Shown in pieces: positions 46,182-64,000 of a DNA stretch of 64,000 nt (position 1 is its first letter; each line of letters begins with the position of its first letter). A program made the translations under genes and the position numbers. The notes beneath the pieces were generated by a model. The model was not told the DNA's origin. It saw nothing but the letters and a program-made list of their open reading frames with translations, and made no database searches. The stretch is from an uncultured Candidatus Binatia bacterium (GTDB taxonomy: Bacteria; Desulfobacterota; Binatia; Bin18), in NCBI GenBank assembly GCA_965207575.1, contig OZ242288.1, forward strand, positions 2,941,467 to 3,005,466. The letters are read 5' to 3'.

Positions 46182-48659
<2,478 letters not shown>

Positions 48660-48848: not shown

Positions 48849-48928
48849 CCTGCCCCGGACACGATCCGGGGTCCGGCATGACGAACACGTACTGGCGCGG
48901 CTCCAACGTATCGTGCAACGCGCTAGCC
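48849..48928 (+). repeat. Partial MITE-like repeat, copy D (3' half only)
   Basis: GCCTGCCCCGGACACGATCCGGGGTCCGGCATGACGAA...TATCGTGCAACGCGCTAGCC. It lies at the junction of the tandem protease duplication. Confidence 0.45.
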
Positions 48929-48997
48929 AGAGCAGGGGTCGCCCCCGCAGCGCATCGGGCTCCGCGCGCACGCGGGTGCCGGGTATCCCGCCCGGTC

Positions 48998-51979
48998 TTA
49001 GGGTGTGGCATATACCTTGTACGAACTGATCTGGTTGTTCAGCCCGTACGCGCCCAAACCGACCGCCTGCGGCCCCACGAAGGTCTGCGTCGGGCCACCG
49101 AAGGCCCAGTCGCGGAACACCTCTACGGTATAGCCCGCCCCGATGCGGAGACTGGAGACCCGATCGTTGTGCGTCCCCCCGATCCACGCCACCTCCACCG
49201 GGCCCGTATGCACGATCTCCCAGCCGCCCGCCCCATTCACCCCCTGGTCCCGTAACACCAGCGCTTCGGCCGCCACGGGCGTGGCATACAGCTTGTACGA
49301 ACTGATCTGGTTGTCCAGCCCGGACCCGGCCAAATCCACCGTCTGCGGCCCGACATAGGTCAGCCGTGCCCCCGTGTAGTTCCAATGGCGGAACACCTGC
49401 ACGGTATAGCCATCCCCGATGAGGAGGCTGGAGACCGCATCATTGTGCGCCCCCCCCATCTCCGCCACCTCCACCGGACCCGGATGCGCGGTCTCCCAGC
49501 CGCCCGCCTCCGCCGGTCCATGTTCCCGCAACATCAGCGCCGGCGCGACATATACCTTGTACGAGCTGATATCGTTGTTCAGCGTATCCCCGGCCAAATC
49601 CACTGTCTGTGGCCCGATGTAGGTCTGCCGCGTGCCCTTGAAGCTATAATAGCGGAACACCTCCACGGTGTAGCCAGCGGCAATGGTGAGGCTGGAGATG
49701 ACATTATTGTCCCCCGGCACGAGCCGGCGTACCTCGGCCGGCGCACTATGCACGATCTCCACCCCGCCTGTCTCCCCCACCCCCTTATCCCGCAACACCA
49801 GTACCTCGGGGGACGTTCCCGCCGAGGTGAGAGACAGGCGGTAAGAGCTGACATCATTGTTCAGGGCGGCCAAATCCACGCTCTGCGGCCCCACGTATCT
49901 CTCCCGCGCTCCCCGGAAGACGTCTCGGCGGAACACCTGCACGGTATAGCCATCCCCAATGAGGAGGCTGGAGACCTGATCGTTGTCCGCCCACCCGATC
50001 CACCGCACCTCGACCGGATCGTCGTGCGCAATCTCCCAGGCGCTGGTCTCCCCCAACTGACTCTCCCGCAACACCAGCGCCTCGGCTACGGCCACAGCAG
50101 GCGTGACGTAGAGCTTGTAGGAATTGATCCGGTTGTCCAACACATGCCCGGTCAAATCCACGCTCTGCGGCCCCACATAGGTCTGCCGCGCCGCCTTGAA
50201 GTTGTCATAGCGGAATACCTCGACAGTATAGCCATCCCCGATGAGGAGGCTGGAGACCTGATCGTTGCGCGCCCCCAGCGACGCCACCTCGACTGGCGCA
50301 GTCTGCGTGATCTTCCAGCCGCCCGCCTCATGCAACCCGTGCTCCCGCAACACCAGCGGCGCGGAGGTCGTAAACGGATCGGTGTTCACAATAATCTCCG
50401 GCAACGGGTCTATTTGGACGGTCTCCTCCCCCAGGGCCAGCTTGACCGCACGGTAGGCGTTGAGCCGACGACCGTCGGCCAGATTCCTCTCCCGTGGATC
50501 GACATTGCCGGCGGCGTCCAGCCCATCGAACGCCTCAATGATGTCGGCGGAGGCGCGGAGCTTGGCCTTCAACTCACCGGGGGTCAGGGTGGGTTTGACC
50601 ATCAACATCAGGGCCGCCACGCCCGCCACTTGCGGGGCGGCAAGAGAGGTGCCTTTTCGATTGTCGTCTAATGTTGGGATCCAAAGTGCCCCGGTGGCAA
50701 TATCGATATGGGAACCATAGGTGGAGCGAACCCAAATGAGTTCCCCGTTATCATCCCAGTCCCGTTCCGTGCCGCCCACCTGTATCACGTTGTCCAGGCC
50801 GGGCCAACATTGCTGCCCACTGAGACTCACCGCAGACGCAAAGTCCGCCGGCAGGTGTACAGCGTCAGCTCCCCCCGATTCCTTAGGGGAATTTCCGGCA
50901 GCAATGACGAACAGCCCGGCTGAATAATCCTGAAGGGCCTGGTACTCTACTATCAACGAGTTGGCCGGCGTCAGACTATAGTCGGTACAGCTCTGATAGG
51001 CATGATAGTGGGCCAGACTCACATTGATAATATCCAACTGGTTGTGCCGCGCGAAATCCACGCCTTGGACGGCGTCCAGCGTGGTGAAAGAGAGATCGCC
51101 AACCCGGATGCCCACAAGCTCGACATCCTGGGCCACCCCGAAGCTGCCATACCCATTATTGAACTCCCCGGCGGCCACCCCGGCCACCAGGGAGCCATGA
51201 TCATCAGAGACAGTATTGGGGTCCGCATCGTGCGTGTCTCCCACAAAATCCCGGCCGCCATTACACGTGGTCATCGCGCCATTCTCATCCCGACAATTGG
51301 TCTTGCTCCATTTCTTCCCGGCTAGATCTCGGTTGCTGAAGTCCACGCCCGTATCGAGTATGCCAATCGTGATGGGTCCGGCCCCAGTGGGCCGGGCCTG
51401 CGCGCGGTCCCACACCTCATCCCACGCATCTCGGAGTTGGATCGCCTTGAGATGCCAGGCCGCACGGCGGCCTGGGTCGGGATTGGAGGTCTGGTCCGTG
51501 GTGTAGGCCGCACTGGTCTGGTGGGGGTAGTACAGGAAGTTGGGTTGCGCGTGCAGCACGCCGGCGAGTGGGCTGGTCTTGAGCCGGGCGATGACGGTGT
51601 GGGGGTCTTCCTCCTCCCCCAGGGCAATCGCTTCGGTCTGGAGGGAGTCGATGCGCGTCATCACCTCCGCCGACGGGAAGCCGTTGGTCCGCAGCAGGTC
51701 ATCGACCACGCCCACCGGCCTGAGTGGAATGTCAACATCAGCCTGGTCCCCCACGAACCCGCCGAGTCCGCCGGGCAACTTGTCCCAGAGATCGTCCAAG
51801 AGGTCTTCGAGATGGGCGGTGTAGACCGTCTCGTCGTATTGAATCAACACCACCCCCATTTCGTAGGCGGGGGCGGCCCCCGGGTCGCCCGGAGTGGGCT
51901 GCGCCAGGACTGAACCCCCCAGGAAGAGCGCGGCGAGACACCCGCCAGCGAGGAAACGCAGGGTTTTCAATAGCAGCAT
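48998..51979 (-). CDS. Secreted subtilisin-like (S8) serine peptidase, tandem paralog with about six beta-gamma-crystallin-like repeats
   Basis: Same architecture as 46182-48659. Start taken at MLLLKTLRF (51979), matching the paralog and the duplicated 5' region. Confidence 0.8.
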   Translation of the reverse strand: MLLLKTLRFLAGGCLAALFLGGSVLAQPTPGDPGAAPAYEMGVVLIQYDETVYTAHLEDLLDDLWDKLPGGLGGFVGDQADVDIPLRPVGVVDDLLRTNGFPSAEVMTRIDSLQTEAIALGEEEDPHTVIARLKTSPLAGVLHAQPNFLYYPHQTSAAYTTDQTSNPDPGRRAAWHLKAIQLRDAWDEVWDRAQARPTGAGPITIGILDTGVDFSNRDLAGKKWSKTNCRDENGAMTTCNGGRDFVGDTHDADPNTVSDDHGSLVAGVAAGEFNNGYGSFGVAQDVELVGIRVGDLSFTTLDAVQGVDFARHNQLDIINVSLAHYHAYQSCTDYSLTPANSLIVEYQALQDYSAGLFVIAAGNSPKESGGADAVHLPADFASAVSLSGQQCWPGLDNVIQVGGTERDWDDNGELIWVRSTYGSHIDIATGALWIPTLDDNRKGTSLAAPQVAGVAALMLMVKPTLTPGELKAKLRASADIIEAFDGLDAAGNVDPRERNLADGRRLNAYRAVKLALGEETVQIDPLPEIIVNTDPFTTSAPLVLREHGLHEAGGWKITQTAPVEVASLGARNDQVSSLLIGDGYTVEVFRYDNFKAARQTYVGPQSVDLTGHVLDNRINSYKLYVTPAVAVAEALVLRESQLGETSAWEIAHDDPVEVRWIGWADNDQVSSLLIGDGYTVQVFRRDVFRGARERYVGPQSVDLAALNNDVSSYRLSLTSAGTSPEVLVLRDKGVGETGGVEIVHSAPAEVRRLVPGDNNVISSLTIAAGYTVEVFRYYSFKGTRQTYIGPQTVDLAGDTLNNDISSYKVYVAPALMLREHGPAEAGGWETAHPGPVEVAEMGGAHNDAVSSLLIGDGYTVQVFRHWNYTGARLTYVGPQTVDLAGSGLDNQISSYKLYATPVAAEALVLRDQGVNGAGGWEIVHTGPVEVAWIGGTHNDRVSSLRIGAGYTVEVFRDWAFGGPTQTFVGPQAVGLGAYGLNNQISSYKVYATP

Positions 51980-52282
51980 AGCCGACTCCTCCTTGGATCG
52001 TGTCTCCTGGTGAAACATTCCGCCCCGTCCAGTTCGGCCCCTCGTGTTTCCCGCTCGGCGACACCGGGCGCACGGGGGGCCCCTGGCTAGCCTCCCGTAC
52101 ACCATGACCGCCCGTTTGTCCCTAGAAGAATTACTAGGGTCGGAAAGAATTATGAGGCGCGGTCGTCAGTGAGAACCGTAGGGTATACATTTCGTAAAAC
52201 CCGTCTTCTCCTGATAATAAGAGGAGGTTCGGCTTGACCATGAGGGGAAACAGTGCGAACCACGAGGAAAAAGGAGGCCAGC

Positions 52283-53509
52283 ATGGACCTCATTCTCAGA
52301 AATGGACGCATTGCCGGACAGGAGGATCAGACGACCGTTGATATTGGTATCCAGAATGGCCGTATAGCAGCCATAGAATCCAAGCTGTCAGCCGACGGGC
52401 GTGCGCTTGACCTGCGGGGTCGTTTAGTCGCACCTGGCTTCATTGAAACCCATATCCATCTGGACAAATCCTGCATCCTGGACCGCTGCCGGTCGGCCGA
52501 AGGGAATCTGGAGGAAGTCCTCGTCCAAGTCACTGCTGCCAAACAGGCGTTCACCGCAGAAGACGTGCACCAACGGGCAGCCCGCACCTTGGAAAAATGT
52601 ATCCTGCACGGCACCACCCATGTGCGTACCCACCTTGAGGTTGACCCTGGCATAGGGCTGCGTGGCCTCGACGGGGTGCTCCCCCTCATCCGGGAATATC
52701 AGTGGGCGCTGGACCTTGAGGTGTGCGTCTTTCCGCAGGAAGGCCTGCTCAATAATCCGGGGACCGACGAACTTTTAGTTGCCGCGCTCAATCGGGGCGC
52801 GAGCGTTATTGGCGCCGCCCCTTACACGGACACTGATCCACACGGTCAGATGGATCGCATCTTTGCACTGGCTCGCGAGTTCAACGTTGATATCGATATG
52901 CATTTGGACTTCGGCCATACCTCGGACGAGCTGGATATTGAGTATGTGTGCGATCTGACGGAAAAGTTCGGCTATGGGGGCCGGGTCACCGTCGGCCATG
53001 TGACCAAGATGTCAACGGTTTCTCCGGAACGGTTTTTCGCCCTCGCCCAGCGTCTGGCGAATATCGGCGTCGCGGTCACCGTGCTGCCCGCGACGGACCT
53101 CTACCTGATGGGTCGTCACCAGGATCACAATATTATCCGTGGCGTGACTCCAGCGCATAAACTCGTACAGCGAGGCGTTACCTGTTCGCTCTCGACCAAT
53201 AATGTGCTTAATCCCTTCACGCCGTTTGGCGACTGCTCGTTGATTCGTATGGCCAACCTGTACGCCAATATCTGCCAGGTGGATAATCAAGAGGAAGTGC
53301 GGGCCTGCTTTGATATGGTCACTCGATGTTCAGCCCAAATACTGGGACTCGAAGACTATGGCGTGGAGGTCGGAAAAGCGGCCGATCTGGTTGTCCTGGA
53401 CTGTACGACACCCGAGGCAGCCGTAGCCGAAGTCGTCCCCCCGCTGTACGGCTTCAAACGCGGACGGCAGACATTCACCAGAAAACCGGCTGAGCTGCAT
53501 CGGCCCTGA
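52283..53509 (+). CDS. Cytosine-deaminase-like metal-dependent amidohydrolase (CodA/creatinine-deaminase/AtzC-type)
   Basis: HIHLDK metal motif plus ...HVTKMS... and ...DL... as in CodA-type amidohydrolases. Start at MDLILRNGRI. Confidence 0.65.
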   Translation: MDLILRNGRIAGQEDQTTVDIGIQNGRIAAIESKLSADGRALDLRGRLVAPGFIETHIHLDKSCILDRCRSAEGNLEEVLVQVTAAKQAFTAEDVHQRAARTLEKCILHGTTHVRTHLEVDPGIGLRGLDGVLPLIREYQWALDLEVCVFPQEGLLNNPGTDELLVAALNRGASVIGAAPYTDTDPHGQMDRIFALAREFNVDIDMHLDFGHTSDELDIEYVCDLTEKFGYGGRVTVGHVTKMSTVSPERFFALAQRLANIGVAVTVLPATDLYLMGRHQDHNIIRGVTPAHKLVQRGVTCSLSTNNVLNPFTPFGDCSLIRMANLYANICQVDNQEEVRACFDMVTRCSAQILGLEDYGVEVGKAADLVVLDCTTPEAAVAEVVPPLYGFKRGRQTFTRKPAELHRP

Positions 53510-53516
53510 GGCTACC

Positions 53517-54686
53517 ATGAACGATCCCTTAGGCGCATTCTGTCGCCACACCCACGTCACGCTTCCCGGTTCAGAGACGGGGCCGCTCGCGGGTCTGTCT
53601 CTTGCGGTAAAAGACGTGTTCCATATCGAAGGGCACCGAACGGGAGCGGGCAATCCGGACTGGCTGCGGACCCATCCCGTAGCCGAGACCACAGCTCCTG
53701 CGGTGCAACGTCTCCTGGATGCGGGCGCCCGTATTGTGGGCAAAACGCACACGGATGAGCTGGCCTACAGTCTCAACGGTGAAAATGTCCACTACGGCAC
53801 ACCGGTGAATCCGAACGCCGCGGGCCGTATCCCAGGGGGCTCTTCCAGTGGCTCGGCTGCCGCGGTCGCCGGCGGTCTGGTGGATTTTGCCATTGGAACC
53901 GACTGTGGCGGTTCGGTGCGTTTACCGGCCAGCTACTGCGGGATATTTGGTTTTCGACCGACCCACGGGCGTATTCCGCTTGACGAAATAGCCCCCCTCG
54001 CGTCAAGCTTTGACACGGTCGGGTGGTTTACCCGAGACGCCAGACTCTTGGAAAAGGTCGGTCGGGTGCTCCTGGACGATCAGAGCGACGCGCGACCTCC
54101 ACGCCAACTGCTCCTGGCCTCAGATGCATTTACTCTGGCCGGCGGTACGGTCACCGCAGCACTCCAACCCGCAGTCACAAAACTCAGCCAGGCTATTGGC
54201 CCGTCACAGTCCGTCACCATCAATCCTGGGGGACTTTCGGAATGGATGCAGCTTTTCCGGGTTCTGCAAGGCGCGGAGATCTGGGCCAATCACGGCGCTT
54301 GGATTCGCGCAGTCCAGCCTACTTTCGGGCCGGATATTCATAAACGCTTCGAGTGGACGGCCACAATCCAGCAAGCCGAGGTGGACGGCGCCAGGGAAAA
54401 ACGAGAACAGGTTGCCGCTCGCATGGATGCGTTCCTCGAAGAGGATAGCATCTTATGTCTCCCGACCGCACCCGGCATTGCCCCGCTTCGGCATACACCT
54501 GCGGATGAACTGGAGGTGTTTCGGGCTCAGGCGTTGAGTCTCTTATGTATCGCCGGCCTGGCCCGTCTCCCTCAAGTCAACCTGCCGTTGGGTACTCTTG
54601 ATGGTTGCCCGACCGGCATATCCCTCGTTGGGCCACGCGGAGCGGATATGTTGCTGCTGAAGATTGCGGTAAGCCTGACTCTTTAG
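53517..54686 (+). CDS. Amidase-signature-family amidase
   Basis: GGSSSGSAAAVAGG signature and the Ser-cisSer-Lys triad region. Confidence 0.8.
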   Translation: MNDPLGAFCRHTHVTLPGSETGPLAGLSLAVKDVFHIEGHRTGAGNPDWLRTHPVAETTAPAVQRLLDAGARIVGKTHTDELAYSLNGENVHYGTPVNPNAAGRIPGGSSSGSAAAVAGGLVDFAIGTDCGGSVRLPASYCGIFGFRPTHGRIPLDEIAPLASSFDTVGWFTRDARLLEKVGRVLLDDQSDARPPRQLLLASDAFTLAGGTVTAALQPAVTKLSQAIGPSQSVTINPGGLSEWMQLFRVLQGAEIWANHGAWIRAVQPTFGPDIHKRFEWTATIQQAEVDGAREKREQVAARMDAFLEEDSILCLPTAPGIAPLRHTPADELEVFRAQALSLLCIAGLARLPQVNLPLGTLDGCPTGISLVGPRGADMLLLKIAVSLTL

Positions 54687-54696
54687 GTCTAAGGGT

Positions 54697-55086
54697 CTAC
54701 CACTGCTCTACTGTAAGTCCCTCAACAGCCTGAAAATGTTCGTCTCGCGTCGCAAGCGTCAGTTGATGTTGCATGGCCGTAGCAGCGATCCAAATATCGT
54801 TTTCGGGGATAGGATGACCTTTCGTCCTTAAATGATCTTTGATGGCTCCGTAGTGCTGTGCAGTAATGAGATCACAGCCAAGGACGACATTCCCTACTGT
54901 AAGCATATTGATACGGGATATATTCGTTTCCGCATGGGCAGATTTCTGCGCCCCATAATACAACTCGCCCAATACGATGCTGGAAAGGAGTACCTCATCG
55001 GCTTCTGCCAAGTGCTGCTGTACCACAGCTTCCCCGGCAAAAAGAGCAATGACAATATTCGTATCAATCAGTATTCTACCACTCAT
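54697..55086 (-). CDS. vapC: PIN-domain toxin VapC (second copy)
   Basis: MSGRILIDTNIVIALF... PIN N-terminus; start chosen at the internal Met that overlaps the antitoxin. Confidence 0.7.
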   Translation of the reverse strand: MSGRILIDTNIVIALFAGEAVVQQHLAEADEVLLSSIVLGELYYGAQKSAHAETNISRINMLTVGNVVLGCDLITAQHYGAIKDHLRTKGHPIPENDIWIAATAMQHQLTLATRDEHFQAVEGLTVEQW

Positions 55087-55306
55087 TGGGCTGTATCTGC
55101 TCGCAGCCTTCTTTGATCGATTGTTGCATGGTGGCGAGATCATCGGCCTCGATCAAGCCGACAAAACGCAATAATGTCTGCCCGGGCGCCCCATGCACTC
55201 GGGCCGTCGCCAGGGCGCGCGCAAACTCCAGCACCTGCCGTTGTTGCTCAAGAGATAGTTGCATGAGTTGCTCCTGAATTTCTGCCTCAAGTGTTGAGTA
55301 TGACAT
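55076..55306 (-). CDS. vapB: VapB-like antitoxin (small acidic protein upstream of the PIN toxin)
   Basis: 76 aa, overlapping the vapC start. Confidence 0.45.
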   Translation of the reverse strand: MSYSTLEAEIQEQLMQLSLEQQRQVLEFARALATARVHGAPGQTLLRFVGLIEADDLATMQQSIKEGCEQIQPNEW

Positions 55307-55490
55307 GACAAGGTTCCTCCCTGATAGAGAAAGACGAGGTCAGCTAAAGAGTCGCCTACTCCCCAATTCTCGGTGTATTGTAAGCATTTCCATCGACAAA
55401 TTCGAGTGGGATTCTCTGCCCTGCCCAATCCCTTTTCTCCCTGATATAGGAGGGAGTAGGCTTTTCTTTTCTCGCATAACCAAAGGACAG

Positions 55491-55644
55491 CTCTATGCGC
55501 TTTGGCACCTATTATTTTCTTCAGGCTCCCCCAGGCAGCTCGCATGAAGAGGTTATTCACCGGGAGTTTGCGCAGATTCTGCTCAGCGAAGAACTCGGCT
55601 ACGATAGTGTCTGGCTGACCGAGCACCACTTTATTGAGTTCTGA
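55491..55644 (+). pseudogene. 5' fragment (50 codons) of an LLM oxidoreductase gene, duplicate of 58598-58747
   Basis: About 95% nucleotide identity to the first 150 bp of the intact LLM gene; diverges abruptly after CACTTTATTGAG and stops. Confidence 0.6.
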
Positions 55645-55668
55645 AGAATTTTTCTTTTCAGGCTCGGC

Positions 55669-58167
55669 TCAGCCGGCTTTCTTTTCTGCATCGGCCGCTT
55701 CCTGCCCATACACAAAACGCGGTTGAAACCGATTCAAGACCGCCGGCAGGACCGTCATCGACACAATCAAGCAGGCCCCCATACTGAGTGAAAGCATGAC
55801 ACCCAGGTAAAAGAGGGACTCGAAGTTCGAGGTGAGAAAAATCAGGAAGCCGCCGATAACCACGACCGCATTAAAAAAGATGGCCTTGCCCGAGGTAGCC
55901 ATCGTGGCCGCTGTAATCTGCGTGGGGTCTGTGAGCCCCTCTCGGACTTTGACCCGATACTTACTCAGAAAGTGAATCGTATAATCGATGCCAATCCCGA
56001 TGGTCATCGAGGCAGTGAGCGATTTCCCAATCTCCAGCGGGATATTCAGCAGCCCCAGCAGCCCAAAGCTAAAAATCATCACCAGGCTAATCGGCAGGAC
56101 ATTAATCAGCCCGGCAACGAACGAGCGAAACATGATCGTGGTGAGCAGAAAGACCGCACCGAGCGAGGTCGCCAAGCTCGCCAGTTGCCCGGACACAATC
56201 AGTTCGCTCAGGCGGTTCAGGAGGTAGCCATTACCCGCAATCCCGATCCGAAAGCCGCTGTTCGTCTCCCACCCCGCCACCGTGGGATCAATGCCGGCCA
56301 ACCAGCGGCCCAAGCGGAGTCCCAGCGGATCATGCGCGTCCGTGTCGGTGGTTCCAATCTGGCCGAATTCCTGGACCGCAAAGTCCCGGATAATCTGCAC
56401 GACACGTTCGACGTCTCGGGTCCTATCGGAGCGCAGATAGACCGCTACGTTGGCATGCTGGTAGTCATAGTCCACGACATCGTCGAAATCATCCGTATCT
56501 CCCGAAAACGAATACAGCAGCAGATACTGGGCAACCAGGTCACGAGAGGTCGGGATGACTTCCATTTCTGCCCGATCTTCATTCATGACCCGGTTCATGC
56601 GTTTGATGTATTCCGCTAATGACAAGGAGCCACCCACGTCAGGATCCTGCTCCACCCGCGTTTGCAGGCGGTCCAGTTGATCGAGCAGGACCGGATCTTT
56701 GAGCCGATCAGGCTCATGCCCTTCGATCGCCACATAGATAGGCACGGTGCCTTGAAATGTATCGCGCAGGACCCTATCGCTCACGCGCATCTCGTGGGAT
56801 GGGTGAAACATACCAACCATGGTCGAGTTCACGACAATCCGCTGCGTGCCGAGCACGCACAGTGCAACAACGAGCGCGGCCGGCACCCACACGACCAGTG
56901 GACGACGTGCCATACCGCGACCCAGGCGCGCCAAGAAGCTGGCTGCCCAGCCGGCGGCTGCCAGGTCTCCACTCCGGCGCATTTGATTGCGCAGGCCCTG
57001 GCTGACGGTCGGCGACAACAAACTCAACATGGCCGGGAAAAAGGTCAGCGAGAAGAGCATCGCGGCCAGGATTCCCACTCCACTAAACACCCCAAAATAG
57101 CGGATGGGGACAACGGTCGCAGTCAGAAAGGATAAGAACCCGGCTGCGGTGGTCAGCGAGGTCAAAATGACGGGCTGCCACATCTCACTCATAGTCACAA
57201 TCACGGCGTCAGCTGAGGAAATATCCGGATGCTCCAACAGCTCTTCGTAATAGCGACTCAGAATATGAATGCCATCCGCCACGCCGATGGCCATGAGAAC
57301 GACCGGCATTATGGAGGTGACAAAGTACATAGGAATACCAAGCGCGGCCATAATACCGAGGGTCCAGATCACCGACACGACCACGACCGCCAGCGGCAGG
57401 AGGACGCCGCGCAGGCTTCGATACGTACAATATAAGATTCCCAGAAGCACGACCAAGGTCAGGGGTAAGAAGGTTTCCATGTCGCGCGCTTCCTCTTCCG
57501 ACAAGGTGACTTCGATCGCTCCACGCCCGGCAATATGAAATTCTTCCGGCACGCCCGTCGCCTTTTTAGCCTCGACCATGTCACGGATCGTGGTATACAC
57601 AGTCATCCGTTGCGCCGTGCCTGCCTGTGTGTCTTCGGTTGGCTCCATCTTGGCCATGATGAGCAATCCCGTGCCGTCTTGCGATACGACCCAATTGACG
57701 AACATGTGATTGGCGAAGATGGCCTGTTTAAGATCTGCCAGCGCATTGGCTGCGTCGGGAACGGCTTCCATAAACGGATCAACGTTTATACCGTCTACGG
57801 TGCCAGTGATATTATCCATCGTGGCGATACTGGCCACATCTTCGTCCCGGATGGCTTTGATACCGGGTTGCAGAGCAAGGCGTTCCGAGAACTCTTTGAC
57901 AATACCTAAGGTCCGCGGATTAAAGACGCCATTCTCGTCGGCGTTGTCGTTCAGTACCCCGATCATAATGAGATCACGGATGCCGAATCGTTCTTCAACC
58001 ACTCTGCTATAGGTGAGGATCGGATCATCGAAGGGGAACATGGCCTCAACATCGTTATCAAAGCGTAATGTTTGAATCGGGAGTACGGCCAGCACGGTAC
58101 TACCGAGGACCAGCACGATGACCAGCCAGCGGAAACGGATGACAGCCCGAAAGAATGATTCCATCAT
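55669..58167 (-). CDS. MMPL/RND-superfamily membrane transporter
   Basis: 832 aa with two 6-TM bundles, each followed by a large periplasmic loop; MMPL-domain pattern. Confidence 0.75.
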   Translation of the reverse strand: MMESFFRAVIRFRWLVIVLVLGSTVLAVLPIQTLRFDNDVEAMFPFDDPILTYSRVVEERFGIRDLIMIGVLNDNADENGVFNPRTLGIVKEFSERLALQPGIKAIRDEDVASIATMDNITGTVDGINVDPFMEAVPDAANALADLKQAIFANHMFVNWVVSQDGTGLLIMAKMEPTEDTQAGTAQRMTVYTTIRDMVEAKKATGVPEEFHIAGRGAIEVTLSEEEARDMETFLPLTLVVLLGILYCTYRSLRGVLLPLAVVVVSVIWTLGIMAALGIPMYFVTSIMPVVLMAIGVADGIHILSRYYEELLEHPDISSADAVIVTMSEMWQPVILTSLTTAAGFLSFLTATVVPIRYFGVFSGVGILAAMLFSLTFFPAMLSLLSPTVSQGLRNQMRRSGDLAAAGWAASFLARLGRGMARRPLVVWVPAALVVALCVLGTQRIVVNSTMVGMFHPSHEMRVSDRVLRDTFQGTVPIYVAIEGHEPDRLKDPVLLDQLDRLQTRVEQDPDVGGSLSLAEYIKRMNRVMNEDRAEMEVIPTSRDLVAQYLLLYSFSGDTDDFDDVVDYDYQHANVAVYLRSDRTRDVERVVQIIRDFAVQEFGQIGTTDTDAHDPLGLRLGRWLAGIDPTVAGWETNSGFRIGIAGNGYLLNRLSELIVSGQLASLATSLGAVFLLTTIMFRSFVAGLINVLPISLVMIFSFGLLGLLNIPLEIGKSLTASMTIGIGIDYTIHFLSKYRVKVREGLTDPTQITAATMATSGKAIFFNAVVVIGGFLIFLTSNFESLFYLGVMLSLSMGACLIVSMTVLPAVLNRFQPRFVYGQEAADAEKKAG

Positions 58168-58597
58168 TTCCTCCTCCTTGGATTCTTACTTAGCGGACGT
58201 TTCTTGCCGCAGCGAACACGAGTGCGTTGCCTGGACGTGGCGATCCACAGTAGGGCCAGGATCCTATCTGCTAGCTCAGCCTATTCTCTGCTATACTCTC
58301 AGCGATCAATGTGTCAACTTAACGAAGGGTATTGTCAAGTTATGGAACTCGCGAATTTGGCTTTCCCACCCGGGGGTAAAAATGGGCCTCAGGTGGGCCG
58401 TACCTCCCACCCCGGATAGAGCAACAGATCATGAGCGAGATATTCTTCCTACTCCCCCTACCACTTTTCGCTGTCTCTGCGATAATTTGACAATACCAAA
58501 CTGATACACGACCTGCCCCTTGCCCTGCCCACTCCGGTCTATCTCTGCTAGGAAAAGGAAGGTCCCTCTTCTTCCGACAGCAACAAAGGAACAGACC

Positions 58598-59659
58598 ATG
58601 CGTTTCGGCACCTATTATTTTCTTCAGGCTCCCCCAGGTAGCTCGCACGAAGAGGTTATTCACCGGGAGTTTGCGCAGATTCTGCTCAGCGAAGAACTCG
58701 GCTACGACAGTGTCTGGCTGACTGAGCACCACTTTATTGAGTATGGCATTTCAACCAGCCCCATGGCGCTGGCCGCGGCGATTGCCGCTCGGACCGAACG
58801 GCTCGCCATTGGGCTGGCCGCGGTGATCCTGCCCTTTCATGATCCCATTCGTCTGGCCGAAGAAATTGCCTTTGTCGATATTCTCAGCCGGGGGCGGCTG
58901 CGCGTTGGAATCGGACGAGGGAATCGTCCGGTAGAGTTTGTTGGCTACCGGGTCCCGCAGATAGAAAGTCGAGAGCGCTTCGGCGAGACCGTAGACATCA
59001 TGCTCCAGGCCTGGACGCAGGAGCGAGTCTCGTACCACGGGAAGTTCTTCAGCATTGAAGACATTCCGGTTATTCCCAAGCCTCACCAGAAACCGCATCC
59101 CCCACTATCGCTCGTCTGCGTCAGTCCCGAGACCATGCGGATGGCGGCCCAGCGTGGCTGGTCCATGTTGAATTCCATCCTGTTCGGCCCGTTCAGCCAG
59201 ATCGAGCAGAATCGGGACATCTATACTGCCGCCCTGAGTGAAGCCGGACACTCCGAGGCCGCCATACGGACAGCGCTCCAGTCGTGGGGAGTGTCGCGCC
59301 ATATCTATGTCGCGCCAACCGACGCGCAGGCCCTGCGCGAGGCCCAAGAGGCGGAGCTGTGGTATCAACAATCCCTGGCCCGCTTTCTCGTTCCCGAGCA
59401 TATCGAGGCCGCTCCCCCTGCCCTGCAACCACAGTTTCGTGCTCTGTCCGAGCGTTTGGCCACCATCACCTGGGAGCAGCTTGTGGCAGAGACCGTGCTG
59501 TTTGGCTCGCCCGAGCGGATTGTGGACCGGGTACGTGAAATGGAAGCGGCCGGGGTGGGAGAACTGCTGTGCTGGATGAATTTCGGGGGGCTGCCGCAGG
59601 ACCGGGTTGAACGCTCGATGCGTCTGTTTGCGGAGAAAGTCATGCCCCATTTTCGGTAG
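58598..59659 (+). CDS. Luciferase-like (LLM) flavin-dependent oxidoreductase
   Basis: MRFGTYYFLQAPPGSSHEEVIHREFAQILLSEELGYDSVWLTEHHF... LLM family. Confidence 0.8.
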   Translation: MRFGTYYFLQAPPGSSHEEVIHREFAQILLSEELGYDSVWLTEHHFIEYGISTSPMALAAAIAARTERLAIGLAAVILPFHDPIRLAEEIAFVDILSRGRLRVGIGRGNRPVEFVGYRVPQIESRERFGETVDIMLQAWTQERVSYHGKFFSIEDIPVIPKPHQKPHPPLSLVCVSPETMRMAAQRGWSMLNSILFGPFSQIEQNRDIYTAALSEAGHSEAAIRTALQSWGVSRHIYVAPTDAQALREAQEAELWYQQSLARFLVPEHIEAAPPALQPQFRALSERLATITWEQLVAETVLFGSPERIVDRVREMEAAGVGELLCWMNFGGLPQDRVERSMRLFAEKVMPHFR

Positions 59660-59831
59660 CCGGCGCAACCTGGCGAAAAATTCTGGCACGCGCCCTTGCC
59701 TTCCTCTTCTCAGGTTCAGTAGAAGGAAATGAACAGGAGTACTCAATAAAGGAGGAGCAGACCAAGAGGCGTCACGCGACCGTATATACCACACGATAAA
59801 GCAGTCTCAACGCTCGGACTAAGGAGGGTCT

Positions 59832-60740
59832 ATGGGCAAGGTACAGATGCCGGACGGCAAAAAAATGGCCTGCTGTTTTTGTTTCGATATCGATGCCATG
59901 GCTTTGTGGCTGGGGTTTTTCCGCTCTCCGACCGCCAACCCCCTTTCACGCGGAGAATTCGGCCCTCGGGTGGCCATGCCGCGTATCCTGGACATCCTCG
60001 ATAAATATTCCATCAAAGCGACCTTCTTTACTCCCGGTCATAGTGCCAAACTTTTTCGAGAGGTCGTGCAGGAGGCACATCGCCGGGGCCATGAAATCGC
60101 GGCCCATAGCATGTACCACCAACCTTCCGAGGTCGGTCTGGCCATGAGTGGGGTCGAGCCGGCCTCGCCGGACGAGCAACGCGTCTATCTCGAACAGCAG
60201 ATTGAGCTGTTGGAGAAAACCGTGGGCGAACGGCCCATCGGATTCCGCTCGCCCATTGGCGACTGGTTGGGCGAGCATGTACCGCAGCATCTGATCGACC
60301 TGGGTTTTGTCTATGACAGCAGTTTGCAGGGCCATGACTTTTTGCCCTATCGACTGCGGATTGGCGATACGATCCAGACCGAGGAGCCCTTTGAGGTCAC
60401 CTGGGGGCAGCCCTCGGAACTGCTTGAGATTCCCCTGCACTGGGATACCAATGACTTCGCCCAGTTTGAATTCATGGGGTATTATCTCGATCCCAAAAAC
60501 CCCTGGTTCAACCCGGCCCCTTTCCACACCCCTTCCCAGTCGAAGGAAATTTTTACGTCGAGTTTCGACTATTGTTACGAACACGTCCCGGGTGGCATAT
60601 GGAATACGATCCTTCACCCGCAGTGCTGCGGGCGGGATTTTAAGCCGGCGTGGCTGGAGAGCGTGATCCAGCACGTCTACGCCAAGCCCGGGATTTGGTT
60701 CACAACCATGCGCGAGGCCGCCGCGGCCTGGGAGGATTAA
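59832..60740 (+). CDS. Cytoplasmic polysaccharide-deacetylase (NodB/CE4) family protein
   Basis: NodB motifs (FCFDIDAM..., HSMYHQ); no signal peptide. Confidence 0.65.
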   Translation: MGKVQMPDGKKMACCFCFDIDAMALWLGFFRSPTANPLSRGEFGPRVAMPRILDILDKYSIKATFFTPGHSAKLFREVVQEAHRRGHEIAAHSMYHQPSEVGLAMSGVEPASPDEQRVYLEQQIELLEKTVGERPIGFRSPIGDWLGEHVPQHLIDLGFVYDSSLQGHDFLPYRLRIGDTIQTEEPFEVTWGQPSELLEIPLHWDTNDFAQFEFMGYYLDPKNPWFNPAPFHTPSQSKEIFTSSFDYCYEHVPGGIWNTILHPQCCGRDFKPAWLESVIQHVYAKPGIWFTTMREAAAAWED

Positions 60741-60773
60741 CGGATTAGGCGATTAAAGCAGCCCTCACCCTAA

Positions 60774-60794
60774 CCCTCTCCCAGGGGGAGAGGG
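60774..60794. promoter_or_regulatory. Perfect hairpin CCCTCTCCC-AGG-GGGAGAGGG immediately 5' of the dppA ribosome-binding site
   Basis: 9-bp perfect inverted repeat; same family as 19837-19857 and 21538-21564. Confidence 0.45.
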
Positions 60795-60811
60795 AAACAA
60801 GAGGAGGTCAT

Positions 60812-61801
60812 ATGCGAATCTTCATATCGGTGGATATGGAAGGCATCTCCGGAGTGGAAACCGTGGAGGAGGTCTTTCAGGGCTTACCGGGCTATAAAAC
60901 TTTTCGACAGATCATGGCCGGAGACGTGAACGCCGCCGTGCAGGGGGCGATTGAGGGGGGGGCGACCGACATAGTGGTCTCGGATTCGCACGGTTATATG
61001 TGCAATATCCGACCCAAGGATGTCCATCGTAAGGCCACCCTGAAGTCCGGGATGAAGCGCAATCTCTGCCAGTTCAAAGGCTTTAACCCCGGCTTTGATG
61101 GGGCCCTGTTTATTGGCTATCACTCCAAAGCCGGGACGCCGAACGGCATCCTCAGTCACACCTGGATTCCGGCCTTTCAGGATGTGCGGATAAACGGCCT
61201 GTCGGTTGGGGAGTATGGGCTGAACGGCTTTCTGGTCAGCAGCTTCGGCGTGCCCATTCTGATGCTGTCCGGCGACGATAAAACCATTGAGCAGGCCCGT
61301 CCGCTGCTCGGTGATATCGAATATGTCGAGGTCAAAAAATCGCTCGGCTATTTTAAGGGCCTGCATCTTCCCCTGAGCGAGAGCCACGCCCGCATTCGTG
61401 AGGGCGCGCGACGCGCCCTGCAACGGTTCGCCAAACGGAAACCGCCCATCCTGGATATTGCCTTACCGGTCACGGTCGAGCTTGATCTGTGCCACGAGGC
61501 AAATGATTTGGTGACCGACATGGAGCAGGAGAATCAACGCTTTGTCGACGATGATACCCAGCGGTCGCTGAGCGACGCCGATCTGATCACCCACTACGCC
61601 CCGGTCGAACGCCGCGGGGCGGAGACGGTCGCCTATGTGTGTAACCGCTATGTCGATGCCTATAACACCTTGTTTACCCTGATGTCGTATTTTTACGAAC
61701 GCGATATTGAATGGCTGGTCGAAGAAGTTGCCAAACCGGAGGAGTACCGGCGCAACCTGCAACCCCTCATCGCCGACAGTCCGCTGAATTTCATGCAATG
61801 A
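60812..61801 (+). CDS. dppA: M55-family D-aminopeptidase (DppA-like)
   Basis: MRIFISVDMEGISGV... N-terminus characteristic of the D-aminopeptidase DppA family. Confidence 0.7.
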   Translation: MRIFISVDMEGISGVETVEEVFQGLPGYKTFRQIMAGDVNAAVQGAIEGGATDIVVSDSHGYMCNIRPKDVHRKATLKSGMKRNLCQFKGFNPGFDGALFIGYHSKAGTPNGILSHTWIPAFQDVRINGLSVGEYGLNGFLVSSFGVPILMLSGDDKTIEQARPLLGDIEYVEVKKSLGYFKGLHLPLSESHARIREGARRALQRFAKRKPPILDIALPVTVELDLCHEANDLVTDMEQENQRFVDDDTQRSLSDADLITHYAPVERRGAETVAYVCNRYVDAYNTLFTLMSYFYERDIEWLVEEVAKPEEYRRNLQPLIADSPLNFMQ

Positions 61802-62043
61802 GATAGATATTTCTCCCGGATATGCTCTTTGTATGAGTCGGTATTCATCCAGTGTCCTTTCAGTACCCCGACAAGCGAAGCCGTAAGGGGAGGGAGTTTC
61901 TTTGCGGCTTGCTGGTCGGGCGTGCTGAGAGAATCAAAGAAATCGCCAACCATTTCAGAAACCGATTTGCCCCGGCGATCTGCCTCAAATTTTCCTTTTT
62001 CGACGAAGCTTTCATCCATGCGTAAGGTGAGCTTTGTGTTCAT
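61693..62043 (-). CDS. Small conserved hypothetical protein (RHH-like N-terminus); 3' end uncertain
   Basis: MNTKLTLRMDESFVEKGKFEADRRGKSVSEMV... resembles a small antitoxin-like family. The ORF reads 109 bp into the convergent dppA 3' end, so the functional protein is probably shorter or the gene is decaying. Confidence 0.3.
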   Translation of the reverse strand: MNTKLTLRMDESFVEKGKFEADRRGKSVSEMVGDFFDSLSTPDQQAAKKLPPLTASLVGVLKGHWMNTDSYKEHIREKYLSHCMKFSGLSAMRGCRLRRYSSGLATSSTSHSISRS

Positions 62044-62084
62044 GACCTATATCTATTCTGACACATACGTCACGTCAAACTTCC

Positions 62085-62246
62085 GTTTGCAGCCGTCCGT
62101 CATTCCGGCGAAAGCAGGAATCCAGGCTTCCAGCCCCCCGTTCGTCCTGAGCGTAGCAAAGCGAAGTCGAAGGACTGGATGCCGGATCACGTCCGGCATG
62201 ACGCGAGCATCCCGGAACGGCTAGAGCCTATCGTGAAACGCGCTAG
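62085..62246 (+). repeat. MITE-like structured repeat, copy E (5' TIR degenerate)
   Basis: GCAGCCGTCCGTCATTCCGGCGAAAGCAGGAATCCAGG ... GGATGCCGGATCACGTCCGGCATGACG ... TATCGTGAAACGCGCTAG. Confidence 0.5.
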
Positions 62247-62336
62247 GGTTTTCAAACTTGACACCCTGCGCCGGTAAGCCGTATACACTTCCAAAGCGCC
62301 GTTATCCTGAACACCAAACCGAACGGGTAGGCGATT

Positions 62337-63263
62337 ATGTGTGGCATCGTTGGATTTTTAGACAAAAGCGGCAACCGCCAGGCCGCAGTCGGGCAAACCC
62401 TGCTCGACATGTTGTCGGCTCTTGACCGCCGTGGCCCGGATTCGAGCGGAGTTGCCGTGTATGCCGACCGTGGCGCGGACGCTTGCGTTCTACGCATCAA
62501 GCTGGGCGAGCACGGGCCGTTCGAGACCCTCGCCGACCAGGTCGTCGAGCAGGTCAAAAGCCTCGTTTCGGTGTCTGCGGTAGACGTCCAGGGCCCGTCT
62601 CTGCGTCTCGTCGCTACGCCTCCGGAAAACCCGGAATCTCTGGAACGGGCCATTGAAGCGGCGGGCAGCAGCGTCGAAGTCGTCAGCCTGGGCAGCCGCC
62701 TTGAGTTGGTCAAACAGGTTGGTTCTCCGGCAAATCTTGAGGCCACGTATGCGGTCTCGTCCTATGTTGGCACGCATGGCATCGGCCATACCCGCATGTC
62801 TACCGAGAGTCGCGTTGACCTCAGCCATTCTCAGCCCTTTTGGGCGCATGGCCGCGCCGACGTTGCCGTCGTCCATAACGGGCATATCACCAACTACCAC
62901 AAGATGCGGCGCATCTATGAGCAACAGGGACATCGTTTTTACACCGGGAACGACTCGGAAATTATCGGCCTGTATCTCGCCGACCGCATGGCGCAGGGTG
63001 TCAGCTTTGCAGATGCGCTCCAGACCTCGCTGATCGACTTTGACGGGGCGTTCAGCTATCTGGCCGCCACCGCGGACAGTCTGGGCTATGTCAAAGACCC
63101 GTTTGCCTTCAAACCCCTGGTGGTGACCGACACGCCGGCCTATGTTGCCATTGCCACCGAAGAACAGGCTCTGCGCTCCGCCCTGGGCGATGACTTCCCG
63201 GTGTGGGAACCGGGGGTGAATACCGTCATGACCTGGACGGTCGAGAATGGAGTCGGTTCGTAA
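62337..63263 (+). CDS. Class-II (Ntn) glutamine amidotransferase domain protein (split glutamate-synthase / N-methylglutamate-synthase subunit A type)
   Basis: MCGIVGF N-terminal nucleophile Cys. Confidence 0.7.
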   Translation: MCGIVGFLDKSGNRQAAVGQTLLDMLSALDRRGPDSSGVAVYADRGADACVLRIKLGEHGPFETLADQVVEQVKSLVSVSAVDVQGPSLRLVATPPENPESLERAIEAAGSSVEVVSLGSRLELVKQVGSPANLEATYAVSSYVGTHGIGHTRMSTESRVDLSHSQPFWAHGRADVAVVHNGHITNYHKMRRIYEQQGHRFYTGNDSEIIGLYLADRMAQGVSFADALQTSLIDFDGAFSYLAATADSLGYVKDPFAFKPLVVTDTPAYVAIATEEQALRSALGDDFPVWEPGVNTVMTWTVENGVGS

Positions 63264-63272
63264 GGACGTAGC

Positions 63273-63962
63273 GTGAAAGACATCGACTGTACGGACAAAA
63301 CCTCCCGGGTCATTAATCAGGAAATCCGCCACCACATCCAGGCTGGCGAAACCGAGATAGGCGTCCATCATCCCCAGGCACGCCATAATATCGGCGTTGC
63401 GGTTCTCCAGCCGGTCAGCCTGACCATGACCGGAAGCGTCGGCTATTACTGTGGCGGGCTTATTGACGGGCCGCGGATTGAGGTGCAGGGAAGTTGCGGC
63501 TGGGGCTTGGCGGAAAGCATGCTGAGCGGCACGGTCATCGTGAACCAGAACGCGGGCAATAGCGCGGCGGCATCCATTCGAGGCGGAACGGTCGTGGTCC
63601 GGGGGAGTGCCAGTTCACGCGCCGGTATTGCCATGAAGGGCGGGATGCTCATTGTTCAGGGCAATAGTGGTTATATGACCGGTTTCATGATGCAGAAAGG
63701 CACCATCATTGTCTGCGGCGATACGGCCGAAGCGCTGGGTGACTCCATGTATGAGGGACGTATCTTCGTGGGTGGCCGTATCTCGGACCTGGGCAACGAT
63801 GCGGTCATCGAGGAGGTGACGGACCAGGACCGGACCTTTCTGACAACCACCTTGGCCGAATACGATATTGAAGCGCCGGCCTCCTTTCAAAAGATCGTCT
63901 CCGGCAGACGCTTATGGCAGTTTGACAAAAAAGACTTTGACACTTGGCGGGAGGCCCTGTGA
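63273..63962 (+). CDS. GXGXG-domain protein (glutamate-synthase C-terminal domain / N-methylglutamate-synthase subunit B type)
   Basis: Repeated G-x-G-x-G beta-helix motifs. A further gene starts at the GTG at 63959, running off the window. Confidence 0.7.
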   Translation: MKDIDCTDKTSRVINQEIRHHIQAGETEIGVHHPQARHNIGVAVLQPVSLTMTGSVGYYCGGLIDGPRIEVQGSCGWGLAESMLSGTVIVNQNAGNSAAASIRGGTVVVRGSASSRAGIAMKGGMLIVQGNSGYMTGFMMQKGTIIVCGDTAEALGDSMYEGRIFVGGRISDLGNDAVIEEVTDQDRTFLTTTLAEYDIEAPASFQKIVSGRRLWQFDKKDFDTWREAL

Positions 63963-64000
63963 GTGAGCAAAGAACGAGCGAGCGTCCGGTTGTCCGACAC

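What the first reader, a model, noticed from the sequence alone, without database searches (positions are those of the whole stretch)
55491..58747. About 150-bp direct repeats (5' end of an LLM gene) flanking an MMPL transporter gene
55491-55640 and 58598-58747 are about 95% identical and both begin with ATG of MRFGTYYFLQAPPGSSHEEV.... The downstream copy continues as an intact LLM oxidoreductase. The upstream copy diverges after 50 codons and terminates. The 2.95-kb segment between them encodes only an MMPL/RND-type transporter on the opposite strand. The pattern suggests that the MMPL segment was inserted into, or recombined next to, the LLM gene with duplication of the target. Alternatively the repeats could now mediate excision or amplification of the transporter gene.
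Basis: seen in the sequence. Interest (0 to 1): 0.5.

Follow-up and report, generated by a model that had tools for sequence, protein, structure and literature searches.

The report
Gene stub left beside an inserted transporter gene
A 49-codon leftover of an oxidoreductase (LLM) gene marks the joint where a transporter gene was recombined into a conserved operon of an uncultured Binatia bacterium; this is an ordinary scar of recombination, not a mobile-element signature.

Summary
The repeat is real. Window 55481-55639 matches 58584-58742 (159 nt, E=8e-65). In the 145 coding nt there are 6 mismatches, all synonymous.

Copy 1 is a 49-codon stub of the LLM gene. Copy 2 starts the intact LLM. An intact MMPL/RND gene lies between them on the other strand.

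Nine related Binatia species have amidase directly followed by one intact LLM, with no MMPL, so the MMPL segment is an insertion.

It is not a target-site duplication:
- The 189 nt upstream of the two copies are only 59% alike. Each matches a different set of relatives (92% and 97-98%).
- The copy differences are polymorphisms also found in intact LLM genes.
- There is no transposase, integrase, inverted repeat or tRNA.

The same stub/MMPL joint occurs in three other assemblies, with two different upstream contexts.

The MMPL block has about one third of the synonymous divergence of the flanking genes (0.06-0.07 against 0.18-0.28). In one comparison its edges fall at the two repeats.

Best reading: one illegitimate joining event created the stub, and homologous recombination through LLM sequence has since carried the MMPL block between lineages.

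Excision through the repeats is possible but was not observed. Interest is low to moderate.

The parts
55481..55639 (+). Repeat copy 1: ribosome-binding-site region plus the first 145 nt of an LLM gene
   Evidence: the repeat finder family D1; blastn E=7.7e-65
55495..55644 (+). Truncated LLM stub ORF: 49 aa, of which 48 are LLM residues, followed by F and a stop
   Evidence: Translation. N-terminus of PF00296, E=4e-7. Called as a 49-aa gene in the source record. The same 49 aa occur in L073 and L074, and with one change in L075.
55640..55705 (.). Joint sequence of unknown origin: a 24-nt spacer, the MMPL stop codon and the MMPL C-terminal tail (QEAADAEKKAG)
   Evidence: No match in any relative lacking the stub or elsewhere in the window. 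Its first 81 nt past the stub are identical in L075, and it lies inside the contiguous 96-98% alignments with L073 and L074.
55669..58167 (-). Intact MMPL/HAE3-type RND transporter gene, 832 aa
   Evidence: PF03176 E=6e-47 and TIGR00921 E=1e-70. dN/dS is about 0.13 against L006. 95.4% nt identity to the middle gene of a three-MMPL array in L002.
58168..58597 (.). Divergent intergenic region between MMPL and LLM. Its last 189 nt are the 'type II' LLM upstream haplotype.
   Evidence: 97-98% identical to L006/L007/L053 and 59% to the upstream of copy 1. 58168-58277 resembles the region upstream of the first MMPL gene of the L002 array (79%). No Rfam family.
58584..58742 (+). Repeat copy 2: ribosome-binding site and first 145 nt of the intact LLM gene
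58598..59659 (+). Intact LLM-class flavin-dependent oxidoreductase gene, 353 aa
   Evidence: PF00296 E=5.5e-67. Orthologues of 88-99% aa identity occur across Candidatus Binatia genomes.
55307..55494 (.). 'Type I' LLM upstream haplotype (the VapB-LLM intergenic region) in front of the stub
   Evidence: 92% identical to L012, where it precedes an intact LLM. 100% identical in L075.
54697..55306 (-). VapBC-type toxin-antitoxin pair: VapC (PIN) 54697-55086 and VapB-like 55076-55306. It is a variable insert between amidase and LLM.
   Evidence: PF01850 E=4e-17 and NF047863; gene calls. Absent in nine species, partial in L012, L014 and L020, and a 50-nt remnant in L006, L007 and L053.
52253..54686 (+). 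Amidohydrolase and amidase genes: the conserved left flank that abuts LLM in the ancestral arrangement
   Evidence: Pfam. Synteny in L008-L011, L016-L019 and L021. The amidase stop lies about 20 nt before the LLM ATG in L008-type genomes.

Best explanation
Copy 1 is a dead 5' stub of the LLM gene. It sits at a recombination joint in a variable spot between two conserved genes (amidase and LLM) of a Candidatus Binatia chromosome.

Ancestral state (shown): amidohydrolase-amidase-LLM-deacetylase-M55 peptidase, with the genes almost touching.

Creating event (inferred): DNA carrying MMPL (minus strand), its upstream region and the 5' region of a different LLM allele was joined into a resident LLM. 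One end recombined homologously in LLM. The other end was joined illegitimately after nucleotide 145 of the resident LLM (codon 49), through 66 nt of sequence of unknown origin. This resembles homology-facilitated illegitimate recombination. Integration of a circularised fragment by a single crossover would give the same product. The resident's first 145 nt were left behind as a stub.

Later spread (inferred from divergence patterns): the MMPL block has moved or been homogenised between species-level lineages by ordinary homologous recombination. The stub and the LLM gene act as its homology arms. That is why the same joint occurs behind two different upstream contexts.

The stub itself probably has no function. 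The MMPL and LLM genes are intact and under purifying selection. The insertion separates LLM and the downstream genes from the amidase genes and gives them a new upstream region.
For: 1. The uninterrupted locus exists. Nine species show amidase then an intact LLM, without MMPL.

2. The copies are different alleles. Their upstream 189 nt are 59% identical. Copy 1's upstream is 92% identical to L012 and copy 2's is 97-98% identical to L006/L007/L053.

3. The differences look imported rather than new.
- All 6 differences between the copies are synonymous. The chance of that is 9e-5 for random substitutions and 1.6e-3 for random transitions. dS is 0.233 and dN is 0, the same as the background dS of flanking genes between species (0.18-0.26).
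- Among the four known stubs, 10 of 11 variable sites are third positions whose two states both occur in intact LLM alleles. The only state not seen in intact alleles is the single non-synonymous change.

4. The joint has a single origin and is shared. The stub-filler-MMPL joint is found in L073 and L074 directly after amidase, and in L075 and the window after VapBC. The filler is base-for-base identical in L075 and 96-98% identical in L073 and L074.

5. The MMPL block is younger than its surroundings.
- dS of MMPL against L006, L053, L007 and L073 is 0.072, 0.099, 0.088 and 0.064. Flanking genes give 0.17-0.32.
- Fisher test for L006: p=2e-14.
- Against L073, both repeats and the rest of LLM are at background divergence, so the young block ends at the repeats.

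6. Origin of the MMPL gene. It is 95.4% identical in nt to the middle gene of a three-MMPL array (L002). L006 still carries the 5' fragment of a 'next' MMPL gene downstream of it.

7. There is a phylogenetic breakpoint inside the repeat. At positions 6, 9, 42 and 51 copy 2 equals L006. At positions 60, 66, 93, 114 and 135 the two window copies agree against L006. This is a perfect separation, with chance 1/126.

8. Homology-facilitated illegitimate recombination is an established process, and has been proposed to leave orphaned gene pieces (PMC5361080; PMC3240628).
Against: - The donor of the original event is not in the data, so microhomology at the illegitimate joint cannot be examined. The origin of the 66-nt joint sequence is unknown.
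- L006, L007 and L053 have MMPL next to LLM with different left junctions: a VapB remnant followed by a partial MMPL gene or an MFS gene. The order of events is therefore unresolved, and more than one history fits.
- The low dS of MMPL could partly reflect gene-specific constraint rather than recent transfer.
- Inferences within the 145 nt rest on about 11 sites.
- Linear (one-ended) and circular (single-crossover) routes cannot be told apart.
Confidence: 0.6

Rival explanations
1. The repeats are the signature of single-crossover (Campbell-type) integration of a circular MMPL-bearing molecule that carried an LLM 5' segment. The unit still excises and reintegrates through the repeats.
For: - Direct repeats of a chromosomal segment flanking an insert are exactly what a single crossover produces.
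- The repeats share identical runs of 59 and 32 nt, enough for RecA-type recombination.
- Against L073 the low-divergence block ends at the two repeats.
- There is a breakpoint inside the repeat.
- The same joint occurs in two upstream contexts.
Against: - No circular form, empty site in the same lineage, or copy-number variant was seen.
- A linear double crossover using the stub and the LLM body as arms explains the same data.
- If the circle came from an L006-like donor, the 3' part of the stub should look L006-like. It differs at 5 of 86 sites.
Confidence: 0.17
2. The stub is the remnant of a second, once complete LLM paralogue. The ancestor had LLM-MMPL-LLM, and most of the first copy was later deleted.
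For: - The synonymous-only divergence means the stub sequence spent most of its history as part of a functional gene.
Against: - None of about 25 Binatia loci has two LLM orthologues flanking MMPL or two in tandem here.
- The stub sits exactly where the single ancestral LLM starts: 14 nt after amidase in L073 and L074.
- The stub's variation matches alleles of the one orthologous LLM.
Confidence: 0.1
3. A transposition-like insertion of the MMPL gene duplicated about 150 bp of target, and the stub has since decayed neutrally.
For: Direct repeats flank a single inserted gene.
Against: - 159 nt is far longer than any transposase-made target duplication.
- No inverted repeats of at least 20 nt were found in 54000-61000.
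- No transposase or integrase gene lies within about 10 kb, and there is no tRNA.
- The upstream haplotypes of the two copies differ.
- Six of six differences are synonymous. If one copy had decayed neutrally while the other stayed under selection, my own estimate of that chance is about 0.002-0.02. This estimate was derived from the synonymous fractions and was not computed in a tool call.
Confidence: 0.04
4. The 49-aa ORF or its transcript is functional. It could be a small protein, or a transcript that runs antisense into the convergent MMPL gene, and it is kept by selection.
For: - The 49-aa sequence is identical in three lineages despite 7-8 nucleotide differences.
- The ORF keeps the ribosome-binding site and the native upstream region.
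- It converges on MMPL with only 24 nt between the stop codons.
Against: - The silent variation is all pre-existing polymorphism of intact LLM alleles, as expected from recombination. The only new mutation is non-synonymous (H44Y in L075).
- 48 residues of a TIM-barrel N-terminus are unlikely to fold alone (inference).
- L006, L007 and L053 keep MMPL next to LLM without the stub.
- Only a weak 5-bp terminator-like hairpin was found, and no convincing promoter.
Confidence: 0.05

Closest known systems
Homology-facilitated illegitimate recombination (Acinetobacter, Streptococcus pneumoniae, Pseudomonas stutzeri, E. coli conjugation; PMC3240628, with references in PMC5361080)
   Same: Foreign DNA with homology at one end only is integrated by a homologous crossover at that end and an illegitimate joint at the other. 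Here one side is LLM homology. The other side is a joint in the middle of a gene, with extra nucleotides of unknown origin.
   Different: Those cases were observed experimentally and usually delete recipient DNA. Here the event is only inferred. The joint lies upstream of the anchor, so a partial duplication results. The donor is unknown, so microhomology cannot be checked.
Orphaned gene fragments in Rhs/CDI and type VI secretion effector-immunity arrays (model in Kirchberger et al. 2017, PMC5361080)
   Same: Incoming modules sharing a conserved segment with the resident gene displace it and leave truncated relics as direct repeats of the conserved segment. Those repeats can serve later recombination.
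   Different: In those arrays the relics are 3' toxin ends and immunity genes under diversifying selection, and the arrays grow repeatedly. Here there is a single 5' stub of a metabolic gene and a transporter as cargo, with no sign of serial additions.
Campbell-type (single-crossover) integration of a circular molecule
   Same: It produces direct repeats of the shared segment on both sides of the insert and is reversible by recombination between them.
   Different: No replicon, phage or circular intermediate is known here. The repeats are 4% diverged, and the two copies differ in their upstream flanks.
Chromosomal integration hotspots between conserved core genes (general concept; cited from my own knowledge, not from a paper read here)
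   Same: The gap between amidase and LLM holds different cargo in different Binatia species: nothing, VapBC, MMPL, MMPL plus an MFS transporter, or a small inverted-repeat element.
   Different: The hotspot here extends into the first 150 nt of the flanking gene itself.

Membership tests
Transposon/IS insertion with target-site duplication | Short target duplication (about 2-15 bp) made by a transposase | tested here: not met
   The repeat is 159 nt and the copies are 4-6% diverged. They have different upstream haplotypes.
Transposon/IS insertion with target-site duplication | Terminal inverted repeats and a transposase gene in or next to the insert | tested here: not met
   No inverted repeat of at least 20 nt was found in 54000-61000. 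The only gene in the insert is MMPL. No transposase or integrase appears in the gene list for about 10 kb on either side.
Integrative element / site-specific recombination (integrase, att sites, tRNA target) | Tyrosine or serine recombinase gene, and a tRNA or att core repeat | tested here: not met
   No tRNA in 45000-64000. No recombinase domain among the neighbouring genes.
Homology-facilitated illegitimate recombination product | Donor-type sequence continuous from the foreign segment into a homologous anchor | tested here: met
   MMPL, the type II upstream region and LLM codons 50-235 form one low-divergence block with L006 (dS 0.07-0.08, against 0.18-0.26 in flanking genes).
Homology-facilitated illegitimate recombination product | Illegitimate joint at short microhomology between donor end and recipient | not testable with these tools
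   The joint is at 55639/55640. The donor sequence beyond the MMPL tail is unknown and the 66-nt joint sequence has no match.
Campbell-type single-crossover integration | Direct repeats of the shared segment flank the whole insert | tested here: met
Campbell-type single-crossover integration | Detectable circular form or precise empty site in the same population | not testable with these tools
   Reads are not available. The junction pattern was absent from the JGI metagenome contigs.
Tandem or segmental in-place duplication | Both copies derive from one sequence, so their flanks inside the duplicated unit should be equally similar | tested here: not met
   The coding part is 95.9% identical but the upstream 189 nt only 59%. 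Each upstream region matches different relatives.
MMPL / HAE3 RND transporters (the cargo) | Match to PF03176 above the curated threshold over a full-length protein of about 830 aa | tested here: met
   160.6 bits against a cut-off of 20.5. The NCBIfam HAE3 subfamily match is below its cut-off (238.6 against 351.9), so the subfamily is not assigned.
LLM-class flavin-dependent oxidoreductase (the repeated gene) | Match to PF00296 above threshold | tested here: met
   The intact gene scores 226.8 bits. The stub scores 30.1 bits over profile positions 1-48 only. No NCBIfam subfamily reaches its cut-off.

The most novel reading that the evidence does not exclude
The LLM stub is more than a scar: it works as a portable left homology arm. 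Together with the intact LLM on the right, it turns the MMPL gene into a cassette that any LLM-carrying Binatia genome can pick up or lose by ordinary RecA-type recombination, without any dedicated recombinase. The cassette would currently be sweeping across species-level lineages. The first 150 nt of LLM would then be a true insertion hotspot: a small inverted-repeat element hits the very same codon 49 in another genome.
Probability: 0.3. Interest if true: 0.45.

Novelty: new member of a known kind. Interest (0 to 1): 0.25.

Why it matters
This is a clean, well-sampled natural example of how an accessory gene enters a conserved operon in an uncultured phylum without any mobile-element machinery. 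It also shows how the gene fragment left at the joint can later serve as homology for spreading that gene between species.

For annotation, it explains a 49-aa 'LLM' gene call as a pseudogene relic. It also flags that LLM, the deacetylase and the peptidase have been cut off from the amidase genes and given a new upstream region.

It does not reveal a new kind of system.

Tried and rejected
- Exact look-up of the intact LLM protein found nothing on record. The MMPL look-up gave the source contig instead.
- A scan of the JGI metagenome contigs for the 22-nt junction sequence found nothing.
- The 66-nt joint sequence has no significant match in the window or in any fetched locus.
- Two other short 'stubs' in the same protein cluster are not independent truncations:
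  - P0243 (44 aa) is a fold-back artefact at a short-read contig end.
  - P0242 (53 aa) is an 87-nt inverted-repeat element inserted in an otherwise intact LLM.
- P0244 (135 aa) was not followed up. From its sequence it looks like a frameshifted LLM (inference).
- The promoter and terminator scans gave nothing above shuffled expectation, apart from one weak 5-bp hairpin overlapping the MMPL stop codon.
- Rfam found no RNA family in 54000-60500.
- I considered that the window's structure is the ancestor of the L006/L007/L053 arrangement. I rejected this as the simple reading. Those genomes share the VapC deletion with L012, whereas the window has intact VapC. L006 also keeps a more original MMPL 3' flank, with a partial next MMPL gene.
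- The similarity between the window's joint and the end of the small inverted-repeat element is limited to GAAG and is not significant.


Full report
**1. The observation**

The window holds a direct repeat, 55481-55639 and 58584-58742, at an offset of 3103 nt. blastn gives 93.75% identity over 160 columns with E=7.7e-65, and there is no further copy in the 64 kb.

The start codons are at 55495 and 58598.

Over the 145 shared coding nucleotides there are six mismatches. All are third-position C/T transitions and all are synonymous.

Copy 1 leaves the LLM reading frame at codon 49 and stops at codon 50. It is a 49-aa ORF that still matches the first 48 positions of PF00296. Copy 2 opens an intact 353-aa LLM oxidoreductase gene (58598-59659; PF00296, E=5.5e-67).

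Between the copies lies one gene on the minus strand, 55669-58167. It encodes an 832-aa MMPL/HAE3-type RND transporter. It is followed by a 430-nt divergent intergenic region.

Upstream of copy 1 are a VapBC toxin-antitoxin pair (minus strand), then amidase and amidohydrolase genes.

**2. Source and relatives**

The MMPL protein is found on one 4.91-Mb contig of an ENA metagenome assembly. Its name ends in '_c', which I read as circular. A scan of species-representative genomes with the LLM protein returned 65 loci. The close ones are all Candidatus Binatia, many of them complete long-read chromosomes.

**3. The uninterrupted locus exists**

In nine species (L008-L011, L016-L019, L021) the amidase gene is followed directly by one intact LLM, then the deacetylase and the M55 peptidase. 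The gap is about 20 nt in four of them and about 95 nt in the others. This is the ancestral arrangement and looks like an operon.

The space between amidase and LLM is variable in other species:
- L012, L014 and L020 have VapB(C) there.
- L006, L007 and L053 have MMPL there.
- L006 also has the 5' 97 codons of a further MMPL gene, with an in-frame stop.
- L007 and L053 also have an MFS transporter gene, which is frameshifted in L007.

All three MMPL-bearing relatives keep a 50-nt remnant of the VapB 3' end right after amidase. They lack VapC between two 9-nt direct repeats (TCTACCACT), the same deletion as in L012. The window has an intact VapBC.

**4. Where the MMPL gene came from**

Outside this locus, the closest MMPL (95.4% nt) is the middle gene of a tandem array of three MMPL genes on another metagenome contig (L002). 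The 110 nt upstream of the window's MMPL resemble the region upstream of the first gene of that array (79%). L006's partial 'next MMPL' fits an origin from such an array.

After the motif RFVYG, the C-terminal tail of the MMPL differs in every orthologue. The window's 55640-55705 (24-nt spacer, stop codon and tail) matches nothing in the relatives that lack the stub, nor elsewhere in the window.

**5. The two copies are different alleles, not a target duplication**

The 189 nt upstream of copy 1 are 92% identical to the VapB-LLM spacer of L012, where they precede an intact LLM. The 189 nt upstream of copy 2 are 97-98% identical to L006, L007 and L053. The two upstream regions are only 59% identical to each other, close to what unrelated sequence gives in such alignments. 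High identity therefore begins only about 14 nt before the ATG.

The six coding differences give dS=0.233 and dN=0. This equals the synonymous divergence of flanking genes between the window and other species (0.18-0.26).

Six of six synonymous has probability 9e-5 for random substitutions and 1.6e-3 for random transitions. If one copy had decayed neutrally while the other stayed selected, my own estimate is still only about 0.002-0.02. That estimate was derived from the fractions and was not computed in a tool call.

Nothing points to transposition or site-specific integration:
- No inverted repeat of at least 20 nt in 54000-61000.
- No transposase or integrase in the gene list for about 10 kb on either side.
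- No tRNA in 45000-64000.
- No Rfam family in 54000-60500.

**6. The joint is shared**

An exact look-up of the 49-aa product found it on two further contigs from other samples. A one-residue variant (H44Y) is on a third.

- L073 and L074 read amidase, then the stub 14 nt later, then the same joint sequence. L073 continues into MMPL (832 aa), the type II upstream region and an intact LLM. There is no VapBC.
- L075 has VapBC plus the stub, like the window. It is a close relative: about 97% identity from amidohydrolase through to its contig end, with flank dS about 0.10.

L073 belongs to a different lineage, with flank dS of 0.20-0.28. Its two repeats differ at 9 sites, again all synonymous.

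So the joint arose once. It is either old or has been transferred, and it sits behind two different upstream contexts.

**7. The MMPL block is younger than its surroundings**

| Comparison with the window | dS of MMPL | dS of flanking genes |
|---|---|---|
| L006 | 0.072 | 0.18-0.26 |
| L053 | 0.099 | 0.17-0.32 |
| L007 | 0.088 | 0.19-0.31 |
| L073 | 0.064 | 0.20-0.28 |

Fisher's test for L006 gives p=2e-14. The type II upstream region is also 97-98% identical, while other intergenic stretches are 81-95% identical.

Against L006 the young block runs on into LLM codons 50-235 (dS 0.083). Against L073 it stops at the repeats: both the stub and the whole LLM are at background divergence.

This is what recombinational exchange with crossovers in LLM sequence would produce.

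MMPL itself has dN/dS of about 0.13 and is intact, so it is a working gene.

**8. Traces of exchange in the repeats**

In the comparison of copy 1, copy 2 and L006:
- Copy 2 equals L006 against copy 1 at positions 6, 9, 42 and 51.
- The two window copies agree against L006 at positions 60, 66, 93, 114 and 135.
- Copy 1 equals L006 at positions 111 and 126.

The first two classes are perfectly separated along the sequence (chance 1/126). This places a recombination breakpoint between +51 and +60.

Among the four known stubs, 10 of 11 variable sites are third positions where both states occur in intact LLM alleles. The only state absent from intact alleles is the one non-synonymous change. The stubs therefore receive their variation from functional alleles by recombination. 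The conserved 49-aa sequence needs no selection on the stub itself.

**9. Mechanism**

*Shown:*
- The ancestral empty site exists.
- The cargo is related to MMPL genes found in tandem arrays elsewhere.
- The two repeats are different alleles.
- The joint has a single origin and is shared across contexts.
- The MMPL block has low divergence.

*Inferred:*
- The joint was made by one illegitimate end-joining event inside LLM at +145, coupled to a homologous crossover further right. This resembles homology-facilitated illegitimate recombination (PMC3240628).
- The model proposed for orphaned effector and immunity genes is a close parallel (PMC5361080).
- A circular fragment integrating by a single crossover would give the same product.
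- After that, the stub (145-159 nt, with identical runs of 59 and 32 nt) and the LLM body supply left and right homology. The block can therefore enter any LLM-bearing genome by an ordinary double crossover, or VapBC can be swapped in upstream.
- Deletion of the 3.1 kb by recombination between the repeats would restore a single hybrid LLM. This is feasible, but no such product was seen and it cannot be recognised in the present data.

**10. Comparison and verdict**

This is a partial gene duplication at a recombination joint in a variable spot between conserved genes, which is a known kind of genome scar. It fails the tests for:
- transposon target duplication;
- site-specific integration;
- simple in-place duplication.

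It fits one-ended or single-crossover recombination, but the defining microhomology or circular form cannot be tested here.

The specific locus has not been described as far as I could check. It is a tidy example, with an unusually good series of intermediate genome types.

Interest is low to moderate. The most novel reading still open is that the stub acts as a portable homology arm for an MMPL cassette now spreading among Binatia species.

Noticed in passing
L076:8147-8233 (and L013:9885-9958): An 87-nt element with 17-nt terminal inverted repeats (GAAGCCATCTCATAAAT...) and a 3-nt flanking duplication (TAC) is inserted in an LLM orthologue exactly at codon 49. That is within 2 nt of where the window's stub stops matching LLM. 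A 90% identical copy lies 43-116 nt upstream of LLM in L013, flanked by TTA. It looks like a small non-autonomous transposable element, and the LLM 5' region may be a preferred target. There is no copy in the window.
   Followed up: partly
L028:15805-15936: A displaced 3' fragment of the LLM gene (residues 310-353, 82% identical) lies beyond the M55 peptidase gene in another Binatia genome. It is a second gene-fragment relic at this locus.
   Followed up: no
window 54696-54704 and 55074-55082: Nine-nucleotide direct repeats (TCTACCACT) sit at the stop codons of VapC and VapB. L012, L006, L007 and L053 lack exactly the DNA between them, so VapC was lost by a microhomology-bounded deletion while part or all of VapB stayed.
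   Followed up: partly
window 48998-52105 (minus strand): The S8 peptidase gene carries several tandem coding repeats of about 90 residues each. This shows as a recurring motif ending in SSYKLY/SSYKVY and as multiple offset blastn hits against L075.
   Followed up: no
window 54600-55800: G+C is lower here (0.49-0.52) than in the flanks (0.56-0.63). The stretch covers VapBC, the stub and the MMPL 3' end, in line with these being later additions.
   Followed up: no
L071 (same genome, 4.68 Mb): A paralogous MMPL gene (P0141, 77% aa identity) lies next to a type I restriction-modification system elsewhere on the same chromosome. Several relatives carry three or more MMPL paralogues, so the family is expanded in Binatia.
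   Followed up: no
window 61696-62043 (minus strand) and its equivalents in the relatives: The DUF6364 gene next to the M55 peptidase gene is split into two separated matches in most relatives, with inserts of variable length between them. This is another variable spot just downstream.
   Followed up: no
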